This document shows positions 1 through 60,855 of a stretch of 64,000 nucleotides of DNA, piece by piece (the first letter of the stretch is position 1; every line of letters starts with the position of its first letter). The stretch comes from Mobula hypostoma (lineage: Eukaryota): contig NC_086097.1 in the NCBI RefSeq assembly GCF_963921235.1, forward strand, positions 146,446,001 through 146,510,000. Direction: 5' to 3'. Position numbers and translations under genes: made by a program. The notes under the pieces were generated by a model. That model saw only the letters and a program-made list of their open reading frames with translations, was not told where the DNA came from and made no database searches.

Positions 1-414
1 TAGCATTAATGAAAATAAAACTAGATAAGTATGAGACTAAACCTCCCCCTCCACAAAAAAAAACCCAATTATCTACACTGTAGATACATGGATTATCATC
101 TTACAAATATCTACAGATTCTGGAATGCTGGATAACAAATGTGAGCTGACTGTCCTTCTAGCACAGCTGGTTCATATTTCTGTAAGTGGAATGAGCCATT
201 CATTCCTTCATTCCACTTTACATTAAATTCTTTCCCCTTAATGACCAGCTGACCCTTTGGCTATTGTACTTCTCATTATATTCTTTCTCCCACTCACAGT
301 TGTTAATGGTCATTCCACAGAACATTTTCTTCTCTGGTTCGACATCCACAAACACATTATGAATTTTAAATAGAAATAATTCAGAAAATGTGTAGCTCAG
401 ATGGTTGATGGCTG

Positions 415-1730
415 GGTTGAGTTGTTCTCCGATCTTGGCAATCCATTTGTAAATGTTTCATCACCATACCAGAAAACATCATCAGTTTAGGACACAACCT
501 TATCAATCACCCCTTCTGTGGGCACTTTCTGGAGGTCCAAGATCTGTATGCTCCACGAGCACTGGACTAAGTGTGTAAATGTAGGAGGGGACTAAGTTGA
601 AAAATAAATGTGCTAGGTTTTCTAGAATTGACTCCTTCTACCTTAGGCCATAAACTTATCAATCACCCCTCATATCGATGAATGCTTTGCTTTTATATAT
701 TTATCAATCAGTTGATTGGTCATCATTATGGAAACTCAATTATGATGTAGAGAGGGGGTCTTGTCACTGATTGGTTGTGTGGTAAACCCTGTGTGTGGTC
801 TGGAATTTTGCCCGCATTGGCTTATTAATGGGATTGCAGTCTACGTGTCTGTTTATAGAATTGTTTATGGAAAACCACACTCCTAGGAACTCTCTTGCAT
901 GCCGTGTGTTTGTCTGCACCATGCCTTTCACTGACGCCCAGTAGAATTTGTGCCACTCTCGATCTTTGGAGCTAAAGGATGAAGAGGAGAAACATCTCTT
1001 CGGAGTATTCACATGAAACCAATACCCACATAGCTTCATACGTAGATGCCTACGATGTAGACAATGTACCAACCAAGAAGCGACCAAATGGGTTGTCCCA
1101 TAGATTCGAAATATCTCAGAAAAGACAGCCTGACTGCTCCAAGAACATAAAGTTTTGGTCGCACATGAACCACCTGCAGCATTGAGGAGAGTACTCTGCA
1201 GACCTAAAGAACAAACCAAGCAATTGGACAAGACCAATGTGGTCTACAAAATCCAGTGCAGGGACTGCAGTAAATATTACATCGGCCAAACTGGGAGAAA
1301 ACTATCCACAAGGAACATCAACTGGCTATAAAGCGCCATGATCAACTCTCCTTAGTCTCTACCCATGAAGATTGAAAGGGGCACAAATTCGATTGAGCAT
1401 CATTGAGAGTCCTGGTGCAAGCAAGCACGCGGCATGCAAGAGAGTTCCTAGAAGCATGGTTTTCCACAAACAATTCTATAAACTGACATGTAGACCACAA
1501 TCCCATTTATAAGTCAATGCAGATAAAATTCCAGACAATGCACAGAGTTCACCACGCAGCTAATCAGCGATGAGAACCCCTCCCTACATCACAACTAATT
1601 GATAAGTATACAAAAGCCAAGCATTTGGAGGGCATACCACAAGTGAACAGTGCTCTGATGATGTCTCGTCATATAATGATGAAACGTTTGTAAATGGATT
1701 GCCAATATCAGAGAACAACTCAACTCAACC
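415..1730. mobile_element. Penelope-like retroelement remnant with inverted 3' arm
   Basis: Plus strand from 1233 reads TNVVYKIQCRDCSKYYIGQTGRKLSTR (GIY-YIG); 765-920 is the reverse complement of 1413-1570, and 415-485 of 1656-1729. Confidence 0.85.
487..673 (+). mobile_element. Mariner-type DNA transposon 3' remnant nested in the Penelope arm
   Basis: WTKCVNVGGD*VEK* resembles a mariner transposase C-terminus; TIR-like CTTATCAATCACCCC occurs twice; ends ...CCCCTCA followed by TA. Confidence 0.65.
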
Positions 1731-5229: not shown

Positions 5230-6448
5230 AGGCCAACATGATTGCTTACAAAGCTGCTTTTATTGATTACTGCTCAGCATTCAATGTCATCATGCCATCA
5301 GTTATAATCAAGATGCTCCAAAGCCTGGTCCACTGTACCTCCTCGCAGACATTCAGCACTGGCACACCTCAAAGATGTGTGCTTACCCCCCTGTCCTACT
5401 CGCTCTATACTAACGATTATGTGGCTCGTCACAGATCAAACACCGTCTATAAATTTGCTGATAATACAGCTTTTGTTGGCAGAATTTCAGATGGTGATGT
5501 GGAAGCATACAGGAGTGAGGTAGATGAGCAGGTTGAGTGGTGTCACAACAACCACCTTGCACACATCGGTAAGATCAACAAATTGATTGTGAACTTCAAG
5601 CAGGTGAAGTCAAGGGAACACACAGCAGTCCTCATCAAGGGATCAGCAGTGGAAAGGGTGAGCAGTTTCAAGTTCCTGGGTGTCGACATCTCTGAAAATT
5701 TATCCTGGGTCCAACATATTGATGCAGTTACAAAGAAGGCATGACGATGGCTATATTTCATTAGAAGTTTGAGGAAGTTTGGTATCTCACCAAAATCACT
5801 TGAACAATTCAACAGTTGTACCATGGAGAGCATTCTATCTAGTTGCATCACTGTCTAGTATGGAGGGGCCATTGTACAAGATCAGAGAAAGCTGCAGTAA
5901 GTTATAAACTCTGCCAGCTCCATTATGGACACTAGCCTCTCCAACCTCAAGGACATCTTTAAAAGGCGGCATTCATCATTGAGGACTCCCATCACCCAGG
6001 ACGTGCCCCCTTCTCGTTGCTACCATCAAGGAAGAGGTATAGAAGCCTGAAGGCACATACTAAACATTACAGGAACAGCTTCTTCCCCTCCGCCATCAGA
6101 TTTCTGAATGAACAATGAATGCACGAACGCTACATCACTATGTTTTCCTACGTTTTCGCTACATATTTAATTTTATTTTTTATATATACCTCTTATTGTA
6201 ATTTATATTTATTATGATTATGTATTGCAAAGTACCGCTGTTGCAAAACAACAAGTTTCTTGACATATGCCCATGATATTAAAACAGTCCTGCTGAAGGG
6301 TTTCAGCCCGAAATGTCGACTGTATTTTTTTCCGTAAATACTGCCTGGTGTGCTGAGTTCCTCCATATTTTGTGTGTGTTGCTCAGATTTCCAGCATCTG
6401 CAGATTTTCTCTTGTTTTTGATATTAAACCTGATTCTGATTCTGATTA
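5230..6448 (+). mobile_element. L2/Rex-type LINE RT 3' fragment
   Basis: FIDYCSAFN, TGTPQRCVLTPLSYSLYTND, YKFADN, FKFLGV motifs with stops; (CTGATT)n tail. Confidence 0.85.
6284..6418 (+). mobile_element. Short Penelope-3'-derived element with degenerate hammerhead motif
   Basis: CAGTC-CTGCTGA-AGGG..CCC-GAAA-TGTC-GACTG; 10-bp TSD TGATATTAAA at 6274-6283 and 6419-6428. Confidence 0.8.
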
Positions 6449-11421: not shown

Positions 11422-12470
11422 GAAGTTCAAAGTTCAAGATACATTTATTATCAAAGTACATATAAGTCACCATATACTACCCTGAGATTAATTTTTTACA
11501 GTAGATACAAAGAAACACAAAATAATCAATGAAAGACTACACACCAAGACAGACAAACAACTAATGTGCAAAAGGCAACAAATTGTGCAAATACAAAAAG
11601 AAAAAAACAATTGTAATAGTAACTAAATGATTAATAATATTGAGAACTTAAGTTGTAGAATCCTTAAAAGTGAGTCCATAGTTTGTGGACAGCACATACA
11701 GAATGCTGGAGGAACTCAGCAGGCCAGGCAGCATCTATGGAAAAGTGTACAGTCAGCACTTCGGGCCGAAACCCTTCAGCAGAACAAATGGAAAAGAGTA
11801 CAGTCGACATTTCAGGCCGAAACCCTTCGGCGTGACTCGTGTGTGTTGCTCAGCTTTCCAGCATCTGCAGATTTTCTCTTGTTTGTGGAATCAGTTCAGT
11901 GTTGAAGTGAGTGAAGTTATCCACTCTGGTTCAGGAACTGGGTGGTTGGAGGTGGAAATTGTTACTGAAGCTGGTGGTGGTGTCTCCTGTACCTCCTTCC
12001 CAGTGGTAGCAGCGAGAAGAGATCATGGCCTGGAAGGTGGGGGTCCTTGATGATCAGTGCTGCTTTTTTGTAACAGCGGTCTTTATAGATGTACTCAATG
12101 GTGGGGAGGGCTTTGCCTGTGATGGACTAGGCTGTATCCACTACTTTCTGTAGGGTTTTCTTTTAAAGGGCATTGGTGTTTCCATACCAGGCTGTCATGC
12201 AACCAGTCAGGAAACTCTCCACTCTGCATCTATAGAAGCTTACCAAAGTTTTATATGGCATGCCAAAGCTTTGCAGACTTCTAAAAAAGTAGAGGCATGC
12301 TGTGTCTTCGTTGTAATGGCACTAACGTTCTGTTCCCAGGACAGATCTTCGTCGAGGAATTTAAAGTTACTGACCCTCTCCACCTCTGATCCTCTGGTGA
12401 GGTTTGGCTCATGGGCCTCCTGTTTCCTCTCCCAGTAGTCAATAATCAGCTTTTTAGTTTGGTTCCTTTG
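11422..12470 (-). mobile_element. L2/Rex-type LINE 3' part, interrupted by a short element
   Basis: Minus-strand remnants of VERVSNFK, CLYFFRSL and KDPHLPGH motifs; CTTGAACTTTGAA tail. Confidence 0.75.
11690..11880. mobile_element. Short Penelope-derived element: tandem degenerate hammerheads plus inversion
   Basis: 9-bp TSD GTTTGTGGA at 11681-11689 and 11881-11889; two hammerhead-like units on the minus strand (11747-11838), then a plus-oriented tail. Confidence 0.75.
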
Positions 12471-12489
12471 GGATGTTGTAATGTTTCAT

Positions 12490-12605
12490 CAGCCTGAAAT
12501 GTCGACTCTTTACTCCGTTCCATAGATGCTACCTGACCTATTGAATTCCTCCAGCATTTTGTGTGTGTTGCTCTGGATTTCCAGTATTAATGCAGAATTT
12601 CCTGT
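12490..12605 (+). mobile_element. Short Penelope-3'-derived element
   Basis: GCCTGAAATGTCGACT...GATGCTACCTGACC...TTCCTCCAGCATTTTGTGTGTGTTGC matches the family. Confidence 0.75.
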
Positions 12606-12905
12606 GAGTACATTGTAGTGCTATCATTGGTCAGTTAAAAGTTGTGGCTTCTTGACTGTGCCACAGACATTCCAAAGGAGGATGAAGTGGAGCCTGCATC
12701 ATTAAATGTGGCAGCTCAATGGTCAAACCTACTTATTAAAGTAGTTCATCCACAAAACCATTTAAAGACCATCTAAACAAGACCAACACAAGAGAACTAT
12801 TATTCATGTCAGCCTTGGTTTTATGTTCCTCTATGGTGTATTTGTACATTGTAAACTTTATCAATTCCCATATCCTTCCAATAATTCTGGCTACTTACTT
12901 ATCCT

Positions 12906-14139
12906 CAGTTGGTGGGGTCTTGTTGAAGGTGGCGGAAGTAGCGGAGGATAATGTGCTGGATCCAGAGGCTGGTGGGGTGGTAGGTGAGGACAAGGGGAAC
13001 TCTGTCCCTGTTGTGGTGGTGGGAGGATGGGGTGAGGGCCGAAGTGCGGGAAATGGAGGAGTTGCGGGTGAGGGCATCATTGATGATGGTAGAAGGGAAA
13101 CCACGATCCTTAAAGAAAGAGGACATTTGAGATGTCCTAGAACAGAAAGTCTCATCCTTGGAGCAGATGCCGTGGAGACGGAGGAACTGGGAATAGGGAA
13201 TGGCACCAGCCTCCACCCCACCAGCATCCGGATCCAGTACATTATCCTCTGCAACTTCCGCCACTTTCAACAGGACCCCACCACTAAGCACATCGTTCCC
13301 TCTCCACCCCTCTCCGCTTTCCGCAGGGATCTGTCCCTCCCCACGGATCTCCCACCTGGCACTTATCCCTGTAAGCGTAATTGCTACACCTGTCCCTACA
13401 CCTCCTCTCTTGCCACCATTCAGGGCCCCAAACAGTCCTTCCAGGTGAGGCAACACTTCACTTGTGAGTCTGTTGGGGTCATCTGTTGCATTCGGTGCTC
13501 CCAGTGCGGTCTCCCCTACATTGGTGAAACCCAACGCAGATTGGGGGACCACTTCGTCGAGCATCTCCGCTCCGTCCGCCAAAACAGACAGGATCTCCCG
13601 GTAGCCACCCACTTCAGCTCTGCTTCCCATTCCCATTCAGATATGTCCATACGTGACCTCCTCTACTGCCATGATGAGGCTAAACTCAGGTTGGAGGAGC
13701 AACACCTCATATACCATCGAGGTAGTCTCCAGCCCCTTGGTATGAACATAGAATTCCCCAACTTCCGGTAATTTCCTCCCCCTCCTTTCCTCTATCCCTA
13801 TGTCACTCTGCCCCCTCCCCCAGCTGCCTATCACCTCCCTCATGGTTCTGCCTCCTTCTACTACCCATTGTTTTCCTGCCTATCACCTTGCTGCTTCCCC
13901 TCCCCCACCCCTTTGTCTTTCAGATTACTGGGTTTTCAACTGAACCTACCAGACTTCTCCTTCCAACCCTCCCCCACCTTCTTTATAGGGCCTCTGCCCC
14001 TTCTCTCTTCAGTCCTGACGAAGGGTTCCGGCCCGAAACGTCGACTCATTGTTTCCACGGATGCTGCCTGACCTGCTGAGTTCCTCCAGTGTGTTGTGAG
14101 TGTTGCTTTGATCCCAGTATCTGCAGATTATTTTGTGTT
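12906..14139 (+). mobile_element. Penelope-like element (GIY-YIG with Cys-rich linker) with inverted 5' segment
   Basis: Plus 13213-13771: GTYPCKRNCYTC...CIRCSQCGLPYIGETQRRLGDHFVEH...PVATHF...LQPLGMNIEF; minus 13204-12906: AIPYSQFLRLHGICS...FFKDRGFP (RT thumb); pyrimidine-rich 3' UTR. Confidence 0.92.
14011..14046 (+). ncRNA. Minimal type-I hammerhead ribozyme motif
   Basis: AGTC-CTGACGA-A-GGG TTCCGG CCC-GAAA-CGTC-GACT: core boxes intact, stem I AGTC/GACT, stem II GGG/CCC, palindromic ACGT in place of stem III, predicted cut after GUC at 14042. Confidence 0.7.
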
Positions 14140-15950
14140 CAGTGACTCAAAGCAGTCCTGTAAGCACTCCTCCACCTTACTTGACCATACCTTCTTGGTC
14201 TTCACCAGTAGTGCTGTGTTCTTTAGTCTCTGTAGTCTCTGCTAGGAGTAGAAGTACAGCCAGGTGGTTGGACTTTCCAAAGAGTTAGCATGGGATGTCA
14301 CGGTAAGCATTTTTGACGATGATATAACAGTGATCAAGTGTATTGGCTCCTCTGGGTCCATAGGCGATATATTAGTAGATGTTCGGTGACTTCTTCAAGC
14401 TAGCCTGGCAAGAAGTGGGAATGAATGGGAAGGCATCAAGGTGTACTGTTTCATGCCTGTTGATTATGGAGCTCAGTTCCTCCAGTGCCTCCTTGATGTT
14501 TGCCTGAGGTGGACTGTACACCGCCACCAGGATGATGGCGGAGAACTCTGTGGCAGATAAAAAAGAGGATGTTTGACCACTAGATGTTCCAGGTTGGGTG
14601 AGCAGAACTGCCATGTCAGTGCACTACAAGGGGTTCAAAGTTTCCAAGATTTAAAGTACATTATACAGAATACTACTCTTGAGATTCATCCGCCCACAGG
14701 CAGTCACAAAACAAAGAAGCACCATGGTACCCGTTCAAGAAAATATCAACCATCCAACGCGTGAAAAATGAACAAATTGTGCTAATGGCAAAAAGTGGGT
14801 GAAAAACACATACACTATCAAACCAGGAGTCCAATAGTACCGTCTCGTTCAGTTCAGCACAGTGCTGCTGGCCAATTGCAGGCCAGAGAGCCATTCTTCA
14901 CCGGAGCACCCCAGTCCACATTGAATGCTCGGATCAAAAACAGCAAAGCAAGGAGGAACCAGAATCCAGAAACACATGCAAGGTGAACCTCAAAGTCCCC
15001 CAAAACAAACCACAGCCACAAGCCTCACCAATTAGTCCTTGCAGCATGGATCCCAAGACTCCTGCACTTCCCTCTGACAGCAGCTAGCAAGAGGGATAGG
15101 AAGACCTGTCAAGTGCAGGCAGGCGGCACCGAACACACGCCCATCCTCTGCTCTTATCTTTGTCGACTTCAACCTTGCTCGACGCCTCTTTTGGAGAGAA
15201 ATATGGAACCAAACATCAGCTCATGCCCCTTCTCCAGGCCACCCACTCCGCTTTCAACCTCACCAAACTCTCTCAGAGACAGTACGGTGCCAGAATGCTT
15301 AATCAGTGCAACACCACACCATCAAAATGTAAATCATAGGTTCTAGTTGCATACAGCTTAATACTAGAATCATATCTGAAAGTAGCTAAAGAATTAGTTT
15401 TGTGAACAGTCTGCAGTACGTCACCGTTAGTTGTGTTGTTCGTTGGCACCATCAATCATAAAACCTACTCCGCCTATGGAAGACTGAGCGGTCCTGTCTT
15501 CATGCAGAATGATGAAGCCATTGGGCTACAACACTGTGTCTGAAATGGCAGGGGACAGCCATGATTCCATGAAGCAAAGTACACAGCAATCCCTCATGTC
15601 CCTCTGGTAAACCAATCTTGCTCTTGGGTCCTCAATTTTATTTTAAGAGACTGTACATTCACTAGCAGGAGTCAAGAGTGGTGGTATAAGAACTTGGTAT
15701 TTCCAATTGTACCTGTAAACCAGCGCGCCATCCCCCTACTGTTTTCTTAAAGGGGAGCTGCTCTCGTGACACAAGTCTCCCTTCCAGGGTCCGCTGATAT
15801 CACTGCAATTGAGTATCAATAGTTTTTTCAGATGTTTTAAATACCCATGCTTGTGACTGTGAATTTCAGCTGTAGTCGTTCTGATTCGAATGTTTGATGA
15901 TTCCTATTAAAGCCGCACGCAGAGTTGCCACTTATCAGCGCCACCTTAAC
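14140..15950 (-). mobile_element. L2/Rex-type LINE 5' part (APE endonuclease), decayed, with nested insertion
   Basis: EFSAIILVAVYSPPQANIKEALEEL; LDHCISS-like motif; AAGGTGGCGC 5'-end-like motif near 15948. Confidence 0.7.
14635..15453 (-). mobile_element. Non-coding LINE-derived element, copy 2
   Basis: Colinear with 2722-3564 (e.g. GAGATTCATC, CACCATGG, AAATGTAAATCAYAGGTTC); splits the endonuclease remnant. Confidence 0.6.
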
Positions 15951-16444
15951 CTACAAAGTTAAATTAACAAAATTTTAAAGCCATTTAGACAAGTAACAAG
16001 TGGGAGACTTTTAGAGGACTGCAAGCCAAATGCAGGCAGAAGGTACAAGCTGATTGCTGATATGGACGAAATTGGACTGAAAGGCCTGGTTCCATGATCT
16101 ATAACACAAAGCCACAAACTCTTTGTGCAATATTTTTTTCTCTCTGACACTTCGTGGAATGTCTTTTGTTAATTCAGTTTTGTACTTCCATTGGCCCCCT
16201 TTCATTCATCCTCACAAACACAACTTCCCTTTGACAAAACCATAAGTAAATTTTTTTTAAAACGTCTTCCATGTGAATTTGATTTACTATACAAGGCAGT
16301 GTTATGATAACAATCATTAGAAATTGATAAACAAACTTCCGCAAAGTGTTTATTGGTGTTTCGAAAAAAGGAAAACAAAAATTGTGTAAAAAAGTGATTT
16401 TATTAATAATGCATAAAACCATAGCAAAAAAATTGAACAAATAA

Positions 16445-16550
16445 CATCAACCGTATTCTTTTCCATAGATGCTGCCTGGCCTGCTGAGTGCTTCCAGCAT
16501 TTTGTGTGTGTTGCTTGGATTTCCAGCATCTGCAGATTTTCTCTTGCTTG
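16445..16550 (+). mobile_element. Short Penelope-3'-derived element lacking most of the hammerhead
   Basis: 11-bp TSD TGAACAAATAA at 16434-16444 and 16551-16561; family body sequence. Confidence 0.8.
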
Positions 16551-21194: not shown

Positions 21195-21400
21195 ATAGTT
21201 TTCCCTCACCTGATATCACCTATCACTTGCCAGCTTGTACTCCTTCCCCTCCCCCACTTGCTTATTCTGGCTTCTTCCCCCTTCCTTTCAAGTTCCCATG
21301 CAGGGTCTTGGCGATGTGTCAACTGTTTGTTTCTCTCTGTCCTGTTGAGTTCCCCCAGCACTTCTGTATGTGTTGCTCTGGGTTTCCAGTATTTACAGAA
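21195..21400 (+). mobile_element. Decayed Penelope 3' UTR / short element in intron 2
   Basis: Pyrimidine-rich TCACCTATCAC...CCCTCCCCCAC then CTGTTGAGTTCCCCCAGCAC...GTGTTGCTCTG, similar to 13870-14139. Confidence 0.6.
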
Positions 21401-21419
21401 TAGATTGTGCTTCACATTT

Positions 21420-32303: not shown

Positions 32304-32472
32304 CAACACACAAAATACTAGAAGAACTCAGCAGGTCATGCAAGATCTATGAAGGAAAATAAACAGTTGATGTTTGGGCTAAGATCCTTTATCAGGACTT
32401 GGACTAAGATGTCCATTGCTTATTTCCCTTCATTGATGCTGCCTGACCTGCTGAGCTCCTCCCGCATTTTGT
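32304..32472. mobile_element. Inverted pair of short Penelope-derived elements
   Basis: ACAAAATACTAGAAGAACTCAGCAGGTCA and TGACCTGCTGAGCTCCTCCCGCATTTTGT are mutually inverted arms. Confidence 0.7.
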
Positions 32473-32509
32473 ACGTTGATCTCCAATGTCTCTCATGTCC
32501 TTCACAGTT

Positions 32510-35790: not shown

Positions 35791-35889
35791 ATCAACTCTT
35801 TTGGGTGGTACACAAATAACCAACCAACAGTTGAGAAGAGAAAGGTTGGGATTATCTGCAAGATAAATAAAAAAAAAGTATGTGCATTT

Positions 35890-35970
35890 GATACTGCCTG
35901 ACTTGTTGAGTTCCCCACGCACTTTGTGTCTGTAGCTCAAGATTTCCAGTATCTGCAAGATCTCTTGTTT
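35890..35970 (+). mobile_element. Short Penelope-3'-derived element next to the MYD88 promoter
   Basis: GATACTGCCTGACTTGTTGAGTTCCCC...GATTTCCAGTATCTGCAAGATCTCTTGTTT. Confidence 0.7.
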
Positions 35971-41190: not shown

Positions 41191-41472
41191 TCGTATGTTA
41201 ATCACATCTTATTAAAGACTAAATGGCCTCTTCCTGATTTTTCTTGCTATGTTCTTAGTTCTAAATTTTCTTAGTTCATAGAATCAGAAGATACAGAATC
41301 CTTGTGGGTAGAGTTAAGAAACGGCTAGGTAAAAAGACCCTGATGGGAGTTATATGCAGGCCTCCGAAAAGCAGCCAGGATGTGGGGTTCAAGTTTTAAA
41401 GGGAAACAGAAAAGCCATGCAAAAATGCTTTAAATTACAATGGGAGAATGAAAAGCCATGTAAAAAGATCAG

Positions 41473-41606
41473 TAAACACGAGGAAATCTGCAGATGCTGG
41501 AATTTCAAGCAACATGCATAAAAGTTGCTGGTGAATGCAGCAGGCCAGACAGCATCTCTAGGAAGAGGTACAGTCGACGTTTCGGGCCGAGACCCTTTGT
41601 CAGGAC
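41473..41606 (-). mobile_element. Short Penelope-derived element with near-intact hammerhead motif
   Basis: Minus strand GTC-CTGACAA-AGGGTCTCGGCCC-GAAACGTC-GAC; one core substitution; no clear TSD. Confidence 0.8.
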
Positions 41607-60099: not shown

Positions 60100-60855
60100 A
60101 TCCATCCCGCAACATGAGGGAGTAAAAATCTTTGCATTATGACTCTGTTGCAATGTACAGACATGTGAATTTAAAAGTTTGATGGCTTGTAGAAAGAAGC
60201 TATCCCATAGCCTGCTGGTCCTGCTTTAATGCTGCGGTACTGTTTGTCAGACGGAAGTAGCTGAAATGGTTTATGGTTGGGGTGACTGGTGTCCCTGATG
60301 ATCTTCCAGGCCTTCTTTTTGCACTTGCTGCTATAAATATCCTCACAGGAGGGAATTTCACATCCACAGATGCACTGCGCTGTCTGTAGCACTCTTTGCA
60401 TTGCCATGCGAAAAAGGTTGGTGCAGTTCCCATACCAGGCGGTGATACAGCCAGTCATTATGCTCTCAATGGTGTCCCTGTAGAAGTTCTTGAGGATTTG
60501 GTTGCCCATGCCGAACTTCTTCAGTCGCCTGAGATGGAAGAGATGTTGTTCTGCTTTTATTTGCCACAAAGCCACTGTGTACAGTCCAAACAACAGGAAT
60601 TCTGCAGATGCTGGAAATTCAAGCAACATACATCAAAGTTGCTGGTGAACGCAGCAGGCCAAGCAGCATCTATAGGAAGAGGCGCAGTCGACGTTTCAGG
60701 CCGAGACCCTTCGTCAGGACTGTGTACAGTCCAGGTGAGATCATTGGTGATGATCATTACTGAGGAACTTGAAACTATTCACCCTGTCAACTGCAGACCC
60801 ATTGATATTGATCAGGCCAAGTCTGTCCTCGTTCCTCCTGTAATCCACAATCAGA
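60100..60855 (-). mobile_element. L2/Rex-type LINE 3' fragment
   Basis: INGSAVDRVNSFKFL; KAEQHLFHLRRLKKFGM...TSHPNHK. Confidence 0.88.
60589..60718 (-). mobile_element. Short Penelope-derived element with intact hammerhead core and 15-bp TSD
   Basis: ACTGTGTACAGTCCA at 60574-60588 and 60719-60733; minus strand AGTC-CTGACGA-AGGGTCTCGGCCT-GAAACGTC-GACT. Confidence 0.88.

What the first reader, a model, noticed from the sequence alone, without database searches (positions are those of the whole stretch)
60574..60733. Independently mobile ~130-bp hammerhead-bearing retroposon family derived from a Penelope 3' end
Seen: at least eight short copies (6284, 11690, 12490, 16445, 32304, 35890, 41473, 60589) match the last ~130 bp of the Penelope-like element at 12906-14139. 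Four have their own TSDs (10, 9, 11 and 15 bp), and several sit inside other LINEs. The 6284, 41473 and 60589 copies begin almost exactly at hammerhead stem I and end in ...GTTT, with no poly(A) and no tRNA-like head that I can see. Known: Penelope-like elements carry minimal hammerheads in their terminal repeats. Inference: the shared 5' boundary suggests a discrete non-autonomous, ribozyme-defined SINE/retrozyme-like unit mobilised in trans by the Penelope RT/GIY-YIG, rather than random 5' truncation. It may already be catalogued under another name.
Basis: partly seen in the sequence, partly recalled or inferred. Interest (0 to 1): 0.7.

Follow-up and report, generated by a model that had tools for sequence, protein, structure and literature searches.

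The report
Penelope retroelement stubs sharing one edge
These ~130-base repeats in a ray-like fish genome are most likely short by-products of the copying of a Penelope-type jumping gene, a known kind of insertion, but many of them stop at one spot, where the element's hammerhead motif meets a likely splice acceptor, and that stop is not yet explained.

Summary
All eight copies and four TSDs (10, 9, 11, 15 bp) are real. The shared 5' edge is also real: 6 of 13 arms start within about 4 nt of hammerhead helix I, unlikely under smooth truncation (P at most 0.004 by arm, 0.046 by insertion). The 'independent ribozyme-defined family' reading is weaker. No arm (0 of 13) starts at the cleavage site, 31 nt further in; 5 of the 6 helix-I arms have a broken core; there is no tandem array; copies are only 68-78% identical to the 12906 element, and two are fold-back composites. 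Their 3' ends lack poly(A) and fall at two sites about 35 nt apart, the Penelope 'tail' made by internal RT priming. Best reading (0.6): solo terminal-repeat insertions made on the RNA of several autonomous Neptune-type Penelope subfamilies, with cDNA ending at a strong stop. That edge coincides with a textbook 3' splice site (candidate intron 13768-14012), as in D. virilis Penelope. Independent re-mobilisation is not excluded (0.2): no genome, Dfam or raw RNA reads were available. Known kind; the strong stop is the testable lead.

The parts
60589..60722 (-). Focal solo pLTR-plus-tail insertion (subfamily B); its first 4 bases overlap the TSD (microhomology)
60574..60588 (.). TSD, left copy, 15 bp
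60719..60733 (.). TSD, right copy, 15 bp
60685..60722 (-). Minimal type I hammerhead motif: helix I 60722-60718/60689-60685, CUGACGA 60717-60711, helix II, GAAA, predicted cut between 60690 and 60689; core intact but closing pair of helix II is G-U
   Evidence: motif layout from PMC4209133
60589..60624 (-). Optional ~35-nt tail beyond the shorter 3' end; 3' half of a predicted stem-loop
41474..41606 (-). Solo copy, subfamily B (89% to focal), starts at helix I, no TSD, core G8->A, inside a CR1-like LINE
6284..6418 (+). Solo copy, subfamily C, starts at helix I, 10-bp TSD, core A6->C
11690..11887 (.). Composite insertion under one 9-bp TSD: minus arm 11785-11690 (unit 1-96, tail-less), minus arm 11836-11788 (unit 1-49), plus arm 11836-11887 (unit 84-end, tailed)
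12489..12606 (+). Copy truncated inside the hammerhead (unit ~17), no clear TSD
16443..16550 (+). Copy truncated at unit ~26, 11-bp TSD
32306..32478 (.). Head-to-head pair: minus arm 32398-32306 (unit 1-92) and plus arm 32397-32478 (unit 15-96), both tail-less, no TSD
35889..35970 (+). Old copy truncated at unit ~50
21200..21412 (+). Old longer copy that keeps the pyrimidine tract upstream of the hammerhead (homology to the long copy from 21240)
13202..14139 (+). 5'-truncated Neptune-type Penelope: CX3CX2C linker and GIY-YIG domain to the stop at 13769-13771, pyrimidine-rich UTR, hammerhead and tail
12908..13207 (-). Inverted 5' segment of the same insertion (RT thumb region), 71 bp duplicated at the junction
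13768..14012 (+). Candidate 245-nt intron: donor GTAATT at the ORF stop, branch-like yUnAy with A at -28, pyrimidine tract, CAG at the helix I edge (inferred, splicing not shown)
   Evidence: gene model P0002

Best explanation
The short repeats are solo pseudo-LTR (pLTR) insertions made by the ordinary copying cycle of several autonomous Neptune-type Penelope subfamilies, not a separate SINE. Steps: (1) a partial-tandem element is transcribed through its pLTR into the body (known for D. virilis Penelope and anole Poseidon; inferred here). (2) The GIY-YIG domain nicks the target, often 9-15 bp apart on the two strands (TSDs shown). (3) RT primes inside the RNA at one of two sites about 35 nt apart, giving tail-less or tailed 3' ends without poly(A) (two end classes shown; internal priming known from PAc in vitro, inferred here); priming from both target ends gives head-to-head composites (shown; cause inferred). 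(4) After 95-131 nt the cDNA very often ends at the 5' edge of helix I (shown), 31 nt beyond the predicted cut, and is joined with 0-4 nt microhomology or switches template. (5) The stop is a property of the template, not of ribozyme cutting. Of its possible causes I favour the 3' splice site that lies exactly there: on unspliced RNA, factors bound to the pyrimidine tract and AG (or the folded helix beside them) block RT or protect an RNA 5' end (inferred; about half the weight), ahead of a start site at an initiator-like TCAGT (about a third) and cDNA fold-back (the rest). The copies lack the RNA downstream of the priming sites and are probably dead on arrival (analogy with PAc).
For: 3' ends: 9 of 12 printed junctions end near unit 130-131, 3 of 12 near 92-96, matching the optional 30-40-bp tail between two RT start sites (PMC11167929; PMC8557442); two Mobula gene models leave the unit at the shorter end. 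PAc extends both target strands and runs to the template 5' end. 5' ends: 6 of 13 arms within ~4 nt; simulated P 0.0038-0 by arm, 0.046-0 by insertion over mean lengths 30-800; upstream flanks of all six are unlike the long copies' UTR. The edge is met twice inside one insertion (11785, 11836) and at both fold-back joints, as expected of RT run-off. It holds across copies 60-89% identical and in arms sharing A6->C; ribozyme mutants do not change PAc insertion size. Both long copies have branch-like motif, 81-86% pyrimidines and AG at the edge; the D. virilis intron ends at helix I. ORF-bearing relatives are many and varied: contigs cover 30 of 30 bins of 13209-14208 in 4 of 4 runs with loose-end consensuses of other ORF variants; 9 of 14 protein hits are ray or shark gene models at 55-79%.
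Against: Short insertions dominate the window: 8 of 10 carry nothing upstream of the hammerhead and only 1 of 10 has ORF sequence. No long partner of subfamily B (41474, 60589) is in the window. The tree needs only one change of the 'helix-I start' label (support 25/78; 28% of bootstrap trees), so one origin is not ruled out. PAc is a Poseidon, not a Neptune.
Confidence: 0.6

Rival explanations
1. Independent non-autonomous unit (first reader, minus the catalytic claim): some solo copies are transcribed from their own 5' edge or from host transcripts and are re-inserted in trans by Penelope proteins, forming short families such as B.
For: 8 of 10 insertions are short; B pair 89% identical, 100/99 support, no long B copy in the window; pLTR sequences suffice for trans-mobilisation in Adineta (PMC3846280); non-autonomous Chlamys such as MRC1 and short non-autonomous butterfly Penelopes exist.
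Against: Same edge in copies 60-89% identical and inside composites; in PAc the RNA needed for insertion reaches about 55 nt past the first RT start, which solo copies would lack (analogy); both Mobula B-type gene models have the same residue just before the unit, which hints at conserved upstream element sequence (weak); no transduced flank seen beside the 4 TSDs.
Confidence: 0.2
2. Plain 5' truncation with a local pile-up: RT simply loses processivity as it leaves the structured pLTR and enters the pyrimidine tract, and microhomology joining sharpens the apparent edge; no discrete RNA end or bound factor.
For: 5 of 13 arms end at scattered inner positions (15, 17, 26, 50, 84) and 2 run upstream; per-insertion P is only 0.046 at the shortest mean tested; most PLE insertions are 5'-truncated.
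Against: No arm ends in the 90 nt upstream of the edge; the short mean that gives P 0.046 cannot produce the two long copies; cDNA of the hammerhead folds weakly as DNA (-3.7 to -7.8 kcal/mol; 1 of 4 better than shuffles).
Confidence: 0.15
3. True retrozyme: tandem units self-cleave, circularise and are reverse-transcribed; dispersed monomers are their offspring.
For: Monomers of retrozyme families are dispersed in frogs and retrozymes derive from pLTRs; one chondrichthyan was positive (bioRxiv 10.64898/2026.07.22.740005).
Against: 0 of 13 arms start at the cut; no tandem array of the unit; the only same-strand pair has broken cores; no arm is preceded by the unit's own tail as a circle would give; the motif is the minimal, dimer-dependent type, not the canonical one of retrozymes.
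Confidence: 0.05

Closest known systems
Solo pLTRs and 5'-truncated insertions of EN+ Penelope-like elements (PMC3846280 passages; PMC8557442 passages and section 15)
   Same: Optional 30-40-bp tail, inverted/partial-tandem composites, 8-15-bp TSDs or microhomology joins, hammerhead in the pLTR.
   Different: I found no report of 5' ends piling up at helix I; solo copies here outnumber ORF-bearing ones 8 to 1 in the window.
Minimal hammerheads of metazoan PLEs (PMC4209133, parts 1-2 of 4 and supplement parts 1-2 of 3)
   Same: CUGANGA-H, unpaired base before helix II, GAAA-C-G-U-H with no helix III loop; most motifs occur singly, genome-wide.
   Different: No chondrichthyan in the alignment of Fig. 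S3 that I read; the paper does not map insertion ends.
Poseidon of Anolis carolinensis, PAc (PMC11167929, parts 1-2 of 4)
   Same: Two internal RT starts, both strands extended, hammerhead cleavage dispensable, start sites in a stem-loop.
   Different: Poseidon clade; its ORF starts in helix II, whereas here indels of 1-2 nt between subfamilies suggest the unit is non-coding; genomic 5' ends not described in the text read (Fig. S2 not readable).
D. virilis Penelope (PMC2377424 parts 2-3 of 4; PMC4209133)
   Same: A UTR intron whose acceptor lies at the 5' edge of helix I (intron 416-491, hammerhead C3 at 496); genomic copies keep the intron.
   Different: Intron shown by RT-PCR there, only predicted here; 75 versus 245 nt.
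Non-LTR retrozymes (PMC7229834 passages; bioRxiv 10.64898/2026.07.22.740005 parts 1-3 of 5)
   Same: Short, non-coding, hammerhead-bearing, pLTR-related.
   Different: Defined by tandem units with intact ribozymes and circular RNAs; none of that is seen here.

Membership tests
EN+ Penelope-like element (Neptune type), parent element | C-terminal GIY-YIG endonuclease after RT | tested here: met
   13202-13768 aligns at 75% to the C-terminus of RT-bearing ray gene models; GIY-YIG motif read from the translation; Pfam gave no hit to these fragments
EN+ Penelope-like element (Neptune type), parent element | CX2-5CxxC linker between RT and EN (Neptune/Nematis/Naiad) | tested here: met
   CX3CX2C; definition
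EN+ Penelope-like element (Neptune type), parent element | RT phylogeny within Neptune | not tested
Solo pLTR / truncated PLE insertion | Optional 30-40-bp tail, no poly(A) | tested here: met
Solo pLTR / truncated PLE insertion | Inverted or partial-tandem composites | tested here: met
   11690-11887, 32306-32478, 12908-14139
Solo pLTR / truncated PLE insertion | Each short subfamily has an autonomous long partner | tested here: inconclusive
   long copies at 14012 and 21292; none for subfamily B in the window; tree unresolved; no genome
Minimal type I hammerhead | Core CUGANGA / GAAA / UH with helices I and II | tested here: met
   intact in 2 of 8 arms that cover it (14012, 60720); 88.6% of cells paired, but no covariation above shuffles
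Minimal type I hammerhead | Self-cleavage | not testable with these tools
   needs an in vitro dimer assay
Non-LTR retrozyme | At least two tandem units with complete hammerheads | tested here: not met
   (window only); 11788-11835/11690-11785 pair has broken cores
Non-LTR retrozyme | Unit-length linear and circular RNA bounded by the cleavage site | not testable with these tools
   only contigs were served; 0 of 13 genomic arms start at the cut
Pol III SINE | tRNA/5S/7SL head with A and B boxes | tested here: not met
Non-autonomous PLE derivative (MRC1-like) | Own lineage of short copies, re-mobilised without the ORF | tested here: inconclusive
   needs genome-wide subfamily analysis

The most novel reading that the evidence does not exclude
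The unit is a discrete RNA species whose 5' end is set where a spliceosomal 3' splice site meets hammerhead helix I, and some solo copies (subfamily B) are re-mobilised on their own, even with a dead ribozyme: a dispersed, monomeric, Pol III-free SINE equivalent of Penelope elements in a vertebrate. Its genomic footprint would tie the splicing machinery directly to where Penelope RT stops, and bear on why these elements keep their introns and what their hammerhead is for.
Probability: 0.2. Interest if true: 0.62.

Novelty: new member of a known kind. Interest (0 to 1): 0.33.

Why it matters
How Penelope-like elements finish an insertion, why they keep introns and what their hammerhead does are open questions (PMC8557442 section 15). 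A very abundant vertebrate family whose short copies end at one position gives a natural read-out of where RT stops in vivo. In this window that position is not the ribozyme cut but the edge of helix I and a likely splice acceptor. A genome-wide end histogram, which is cheap, would settle whether it is an RNA end, a protein block or an independent family. As an object the repeat itself is ordinary.

Tried and rejected
No genome is held for this window, so the decisive 5'-end histogram could not be made. Pattern scans for more copies found 0 loci in metagenome contigs, genome contigs and viral contigs. Run search: no RNA holder listed; this says nothing on expression. Laying 4 runs (all contigs) on 13209-14208 gave no usable end map: table 6 empty, 24 of 2519 loose-end rows shown and none at 14008-14013, 15 of 403 joints shown and none from 13767 to 14013. 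I computed depth ratios of the two guessed-RNA runs to the two DNA runs: median ratio is lower over 13787-13990 (0.007, 0.003) than over the ORF (0.036, 0.008) or the unit (0.091, 0.020). It would fit an intron, but contig depth cannot rank parts of a gene, the RNA label is a guess and the UTR is subfamily-specific, so I do not count it. Spliced-RNA template rejected: a copy made from RNA spliced at the ORF-stop donor would have C at -2; 0 of 6 do. Lariat stop rejected: it would end near -28. L2-type mobilisation: a weak Rfam hit of the focal tail to the UnaL2 3' element (E 2.9, 15.9 bits against 55) did not recur in 3 of 3 other copies; treated as chance. Rfam has no hammerhead hit even at E<=10. 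Covariation tests on helices I/II and the tail stem (0 of 12 pairs compensated) are uninformative. Whole-unit folding is no better than shuffles in 3 of 4 copies. Pfam did not recognise the ORF pieces. Dfam and Repbase could not be searched; literature searches listed no paper naming this ray family (titles and abstract starts only), so an existing name is not excluded. Supplements of the bioRxiv preprint (retrozyme consensus tables) and the PAc Fig. S2 picture were not seen and may bear on novelty.

Full report
Coordinates: unit position +1 is the G of GTCC just before the hammerhead core (14012 in the long copy, 60720 in the focal copy). The predicted cut lies between +31 and +32.

1. Setting. 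The window is repeat-rich vertebrate DNA (40% G+C). The Penelope fragment's best protein matches are gene models of Mobula and Hypanus (64-79%) and of two sharks (55-58%), so the host is probably a ray. No genome is held.

2. The copies. A profile finds 13 arms in 10 insertions at E<=1.5e-8, including all eight listed places. Four insertions have exact TSDs of 10, 9, 11 and 15 bp; 0 of 150 random pairs reach 9 bp. Three are whole solo units (6284, 41474, 60589), three are truncated inside the unit (12489, 16443, 35889), two are head-to-head composites (11690-11887, 32306-32478) and two run upstream (21200-21412; 12908-14139). Only the last carries ORF sequence. The arms are not one young family: 41474/60589 are 89% alike and 73-75% to the long copy; 6287, 11785, 11835, 11836, 12489 and 16443 are 79-92% alike; 21292, 32398, 32397 and 35889 are older. 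A tree of 11 arms (two under 75 nt left out) resolves only the first pair.

3. The parent. 13202-13771 encodes a CX3CX2C linker and a GIY-YIG domain ending at a stop, 75% identical to the C-terminus of an RT-bearing Hypanus gene model; 12908-13207 is an inverted piece of the same ORF. The linker marks Neptune/Nematis-type elements (PMC8557442, passages). Contigs of 4 of 4 runs cover all 30 bins of 13209-14208, with about 84,500 records laid in each DNA run and loose-end consensuses of other ORF and pLTR variants: the lineage is very abundant and has several subfamilies. A zebra-shark gene model reads through its UTR into the same hammerhead frame (P0008), so the arrangement is old.

4. The 3' ends. 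None of 12 junctions has poly(A). Nine end near +130 and three near +92 to +96; the remaining arm ends at +49 where it abuts another arm. Two ends about 35 nt apart are the Penelope tail, which in anole Poseidon (PAc) is the distance between two internal RT start sites (PMC11167929, parts 1-2 of 4). The shorter end lies at the top of a predicted 12-bp stem (no compensatory changes). PAc also extends both target strands, which explains one TSD around two opposed arms at 11690 (inference). So these copies were made by Penelope RT primed inside a longer RNA.

5. The 5' ends. Six of 13 arms (6287, 11785, 11836, 32398, 41606, 60720; 5 of 10 insertions) start at -1 to +1; five start at 15, 17, 26, 50 and 84; two run upstream. 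The six have no trace of the pyrimidine tract seen in the two long copies (local scores 9-16 against 36; 35-59% pyrimidine against 81-86%), so the edge is not an artefact of the profile. Under exponential truncation the chance of six ends in any 5-nt window is 0.0038 at mean extra length 30 and 3e-5 at 120; per insertion 0.046 and 4e-4 (arms treated as independent; pattern chosen after the fact). One contig of run X5 restarts at 14011 after 14045 (table 5c), a single further example.

6. Is it ribozyme-defined? Not by cutting. No arm starts within 5 nt of +32. Only 1 of the 6 helix-I arms has an intact core (60720), and three share A6->C, which suggests that the change was in their template. 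In PAc, core mutants give insertions of the same size and no RNA-seq reads end at the cut. There is no tandem array, the defining trait of non-LTR retrozymes (bioRxiv 10.64898/2026.07.22.740005, parts 1-3 of 5; PMC7229834, passages). No tRNA head or B box.

7. What lies at the edge. In both long copies it is a textbook 3' splice site: branch-like yUnAy with A at -28/-29, pyrimidine tract, then AG (motif recalled). A donor-like GTAATT overlaps the ORF stop, giving a 245-nt candidate intron (13768-14012); a Hypanus gene model leaves the ORF exactly there (P0002). In D. virilis Penelope a proven UTR intron ends five bases before the hammerhead core (PMC2377424, parts 2-3 of 4; PMC4209133). Against over-reading: of 9 ray gene models that exonise the unit, 2 join at this edge and 4 at an AG about 50 nt inside (automatic models, read as protein), and no splice joint was among those printed. 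The same bases also fit an initiator (TCA+1GT) with a TATA-like stretch 29 nt upstream (recalled consensus; an Inr-like TCACT is described in an Adineta pLTR). All six arms keep G at +1, four keep A before it and none has the C expected from spliced RNA, so the template was unspliced or began there.

8. Mechanism. Most likely (0.6): RT primes near the end of the 5' pLTR on the RNA of an autonomous element, copies 95-131 nt and meets a strong stop at the acceptor/helix I edge; it is then joined to the target, folds back or switches template; a minority pass the stop and give long copies. Shown: end classes, TSDs, composites, clustering, broken cores. Inferred: template identity, cause of the stop, death on arrival (PAc needs RNA about 55 nt past its first RT start). 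Rivals: independent short masters (0.2; short copies are 8 of 10, subfamily B has no long partner in the window, the tree does not exclude one origin, and non-autonomous PLE derivatives are known); plain truncation with a pile-up (0.15); retrozyme circles (0.05).

9. Novelty. Single minimal hammerheads scattered by truncated PLEs, solo pLTRs, tails and fold-backs are all described (PMC4209133, PMC3846280, PMC8557442). I found no paper on this ray family or on 5' ends clustering at helix I in searches (open-access library only; Dfam and Repbase not available). Earlier notes of this scan describe the same repeat as ordinary, and one from another genome also reports stubs beginning with the motif (unchecked, not support). 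Verdict: new member of a known kind, interest 0.33; the strong stop at a likely splice acceptor is the part worth a genome-wide test.

Noticed in passing
window 410-1730: A second, unrelated Penelope (Poseidon-like GIY-YIG at about 1235-1310) with an inverted arm and its own hammerhead motif at 1655 (+) and 485 (-); a piece with a repeated 14-bp terminal word (about 496-670, mariner-like by recall) interrupts the arm.
   Followed up: partly
window 13768-14012: Candidate intron that would remove the ORF stop codon; a Hypanus gene model uses the donor.
   Followed up: partly
P0016-P0024: Nine ray gene models carry the unit as an exon or exon part, mostly through two acceptor positions; the repeat may be a common source of exonisation in rays.
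   Followed up: partly
window 6287, 11785, 11836: Shared A6->C change in the hammerhead core, suggesting a subfamily that spread with a mutated ribozyme.
   Followed up: partly
window 6419, 11885, 16551, 60588: All four TSDs begin with or contain TG(A/G) right at the tail end, overlapping the element's last bases; may be primer-template pairing at initiation.
   Followed up: no
window 60591-60644: Weak likeness of the tail stem-loop to the UnaL2 3' element (E 2.9); not repeated in three other copies.
   Followed up: yes
window 41410-41473: A local ~17-bp duplication and about 48 extra bases in the host LINE next to the 41474 copy, which has no TSD.
   Followed up: no
window 12910-12980 and 13213-13283: 71-bp duplication at the inversion joint of the long copy, only 90% identical: age or two different templates.
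   Followed up: no
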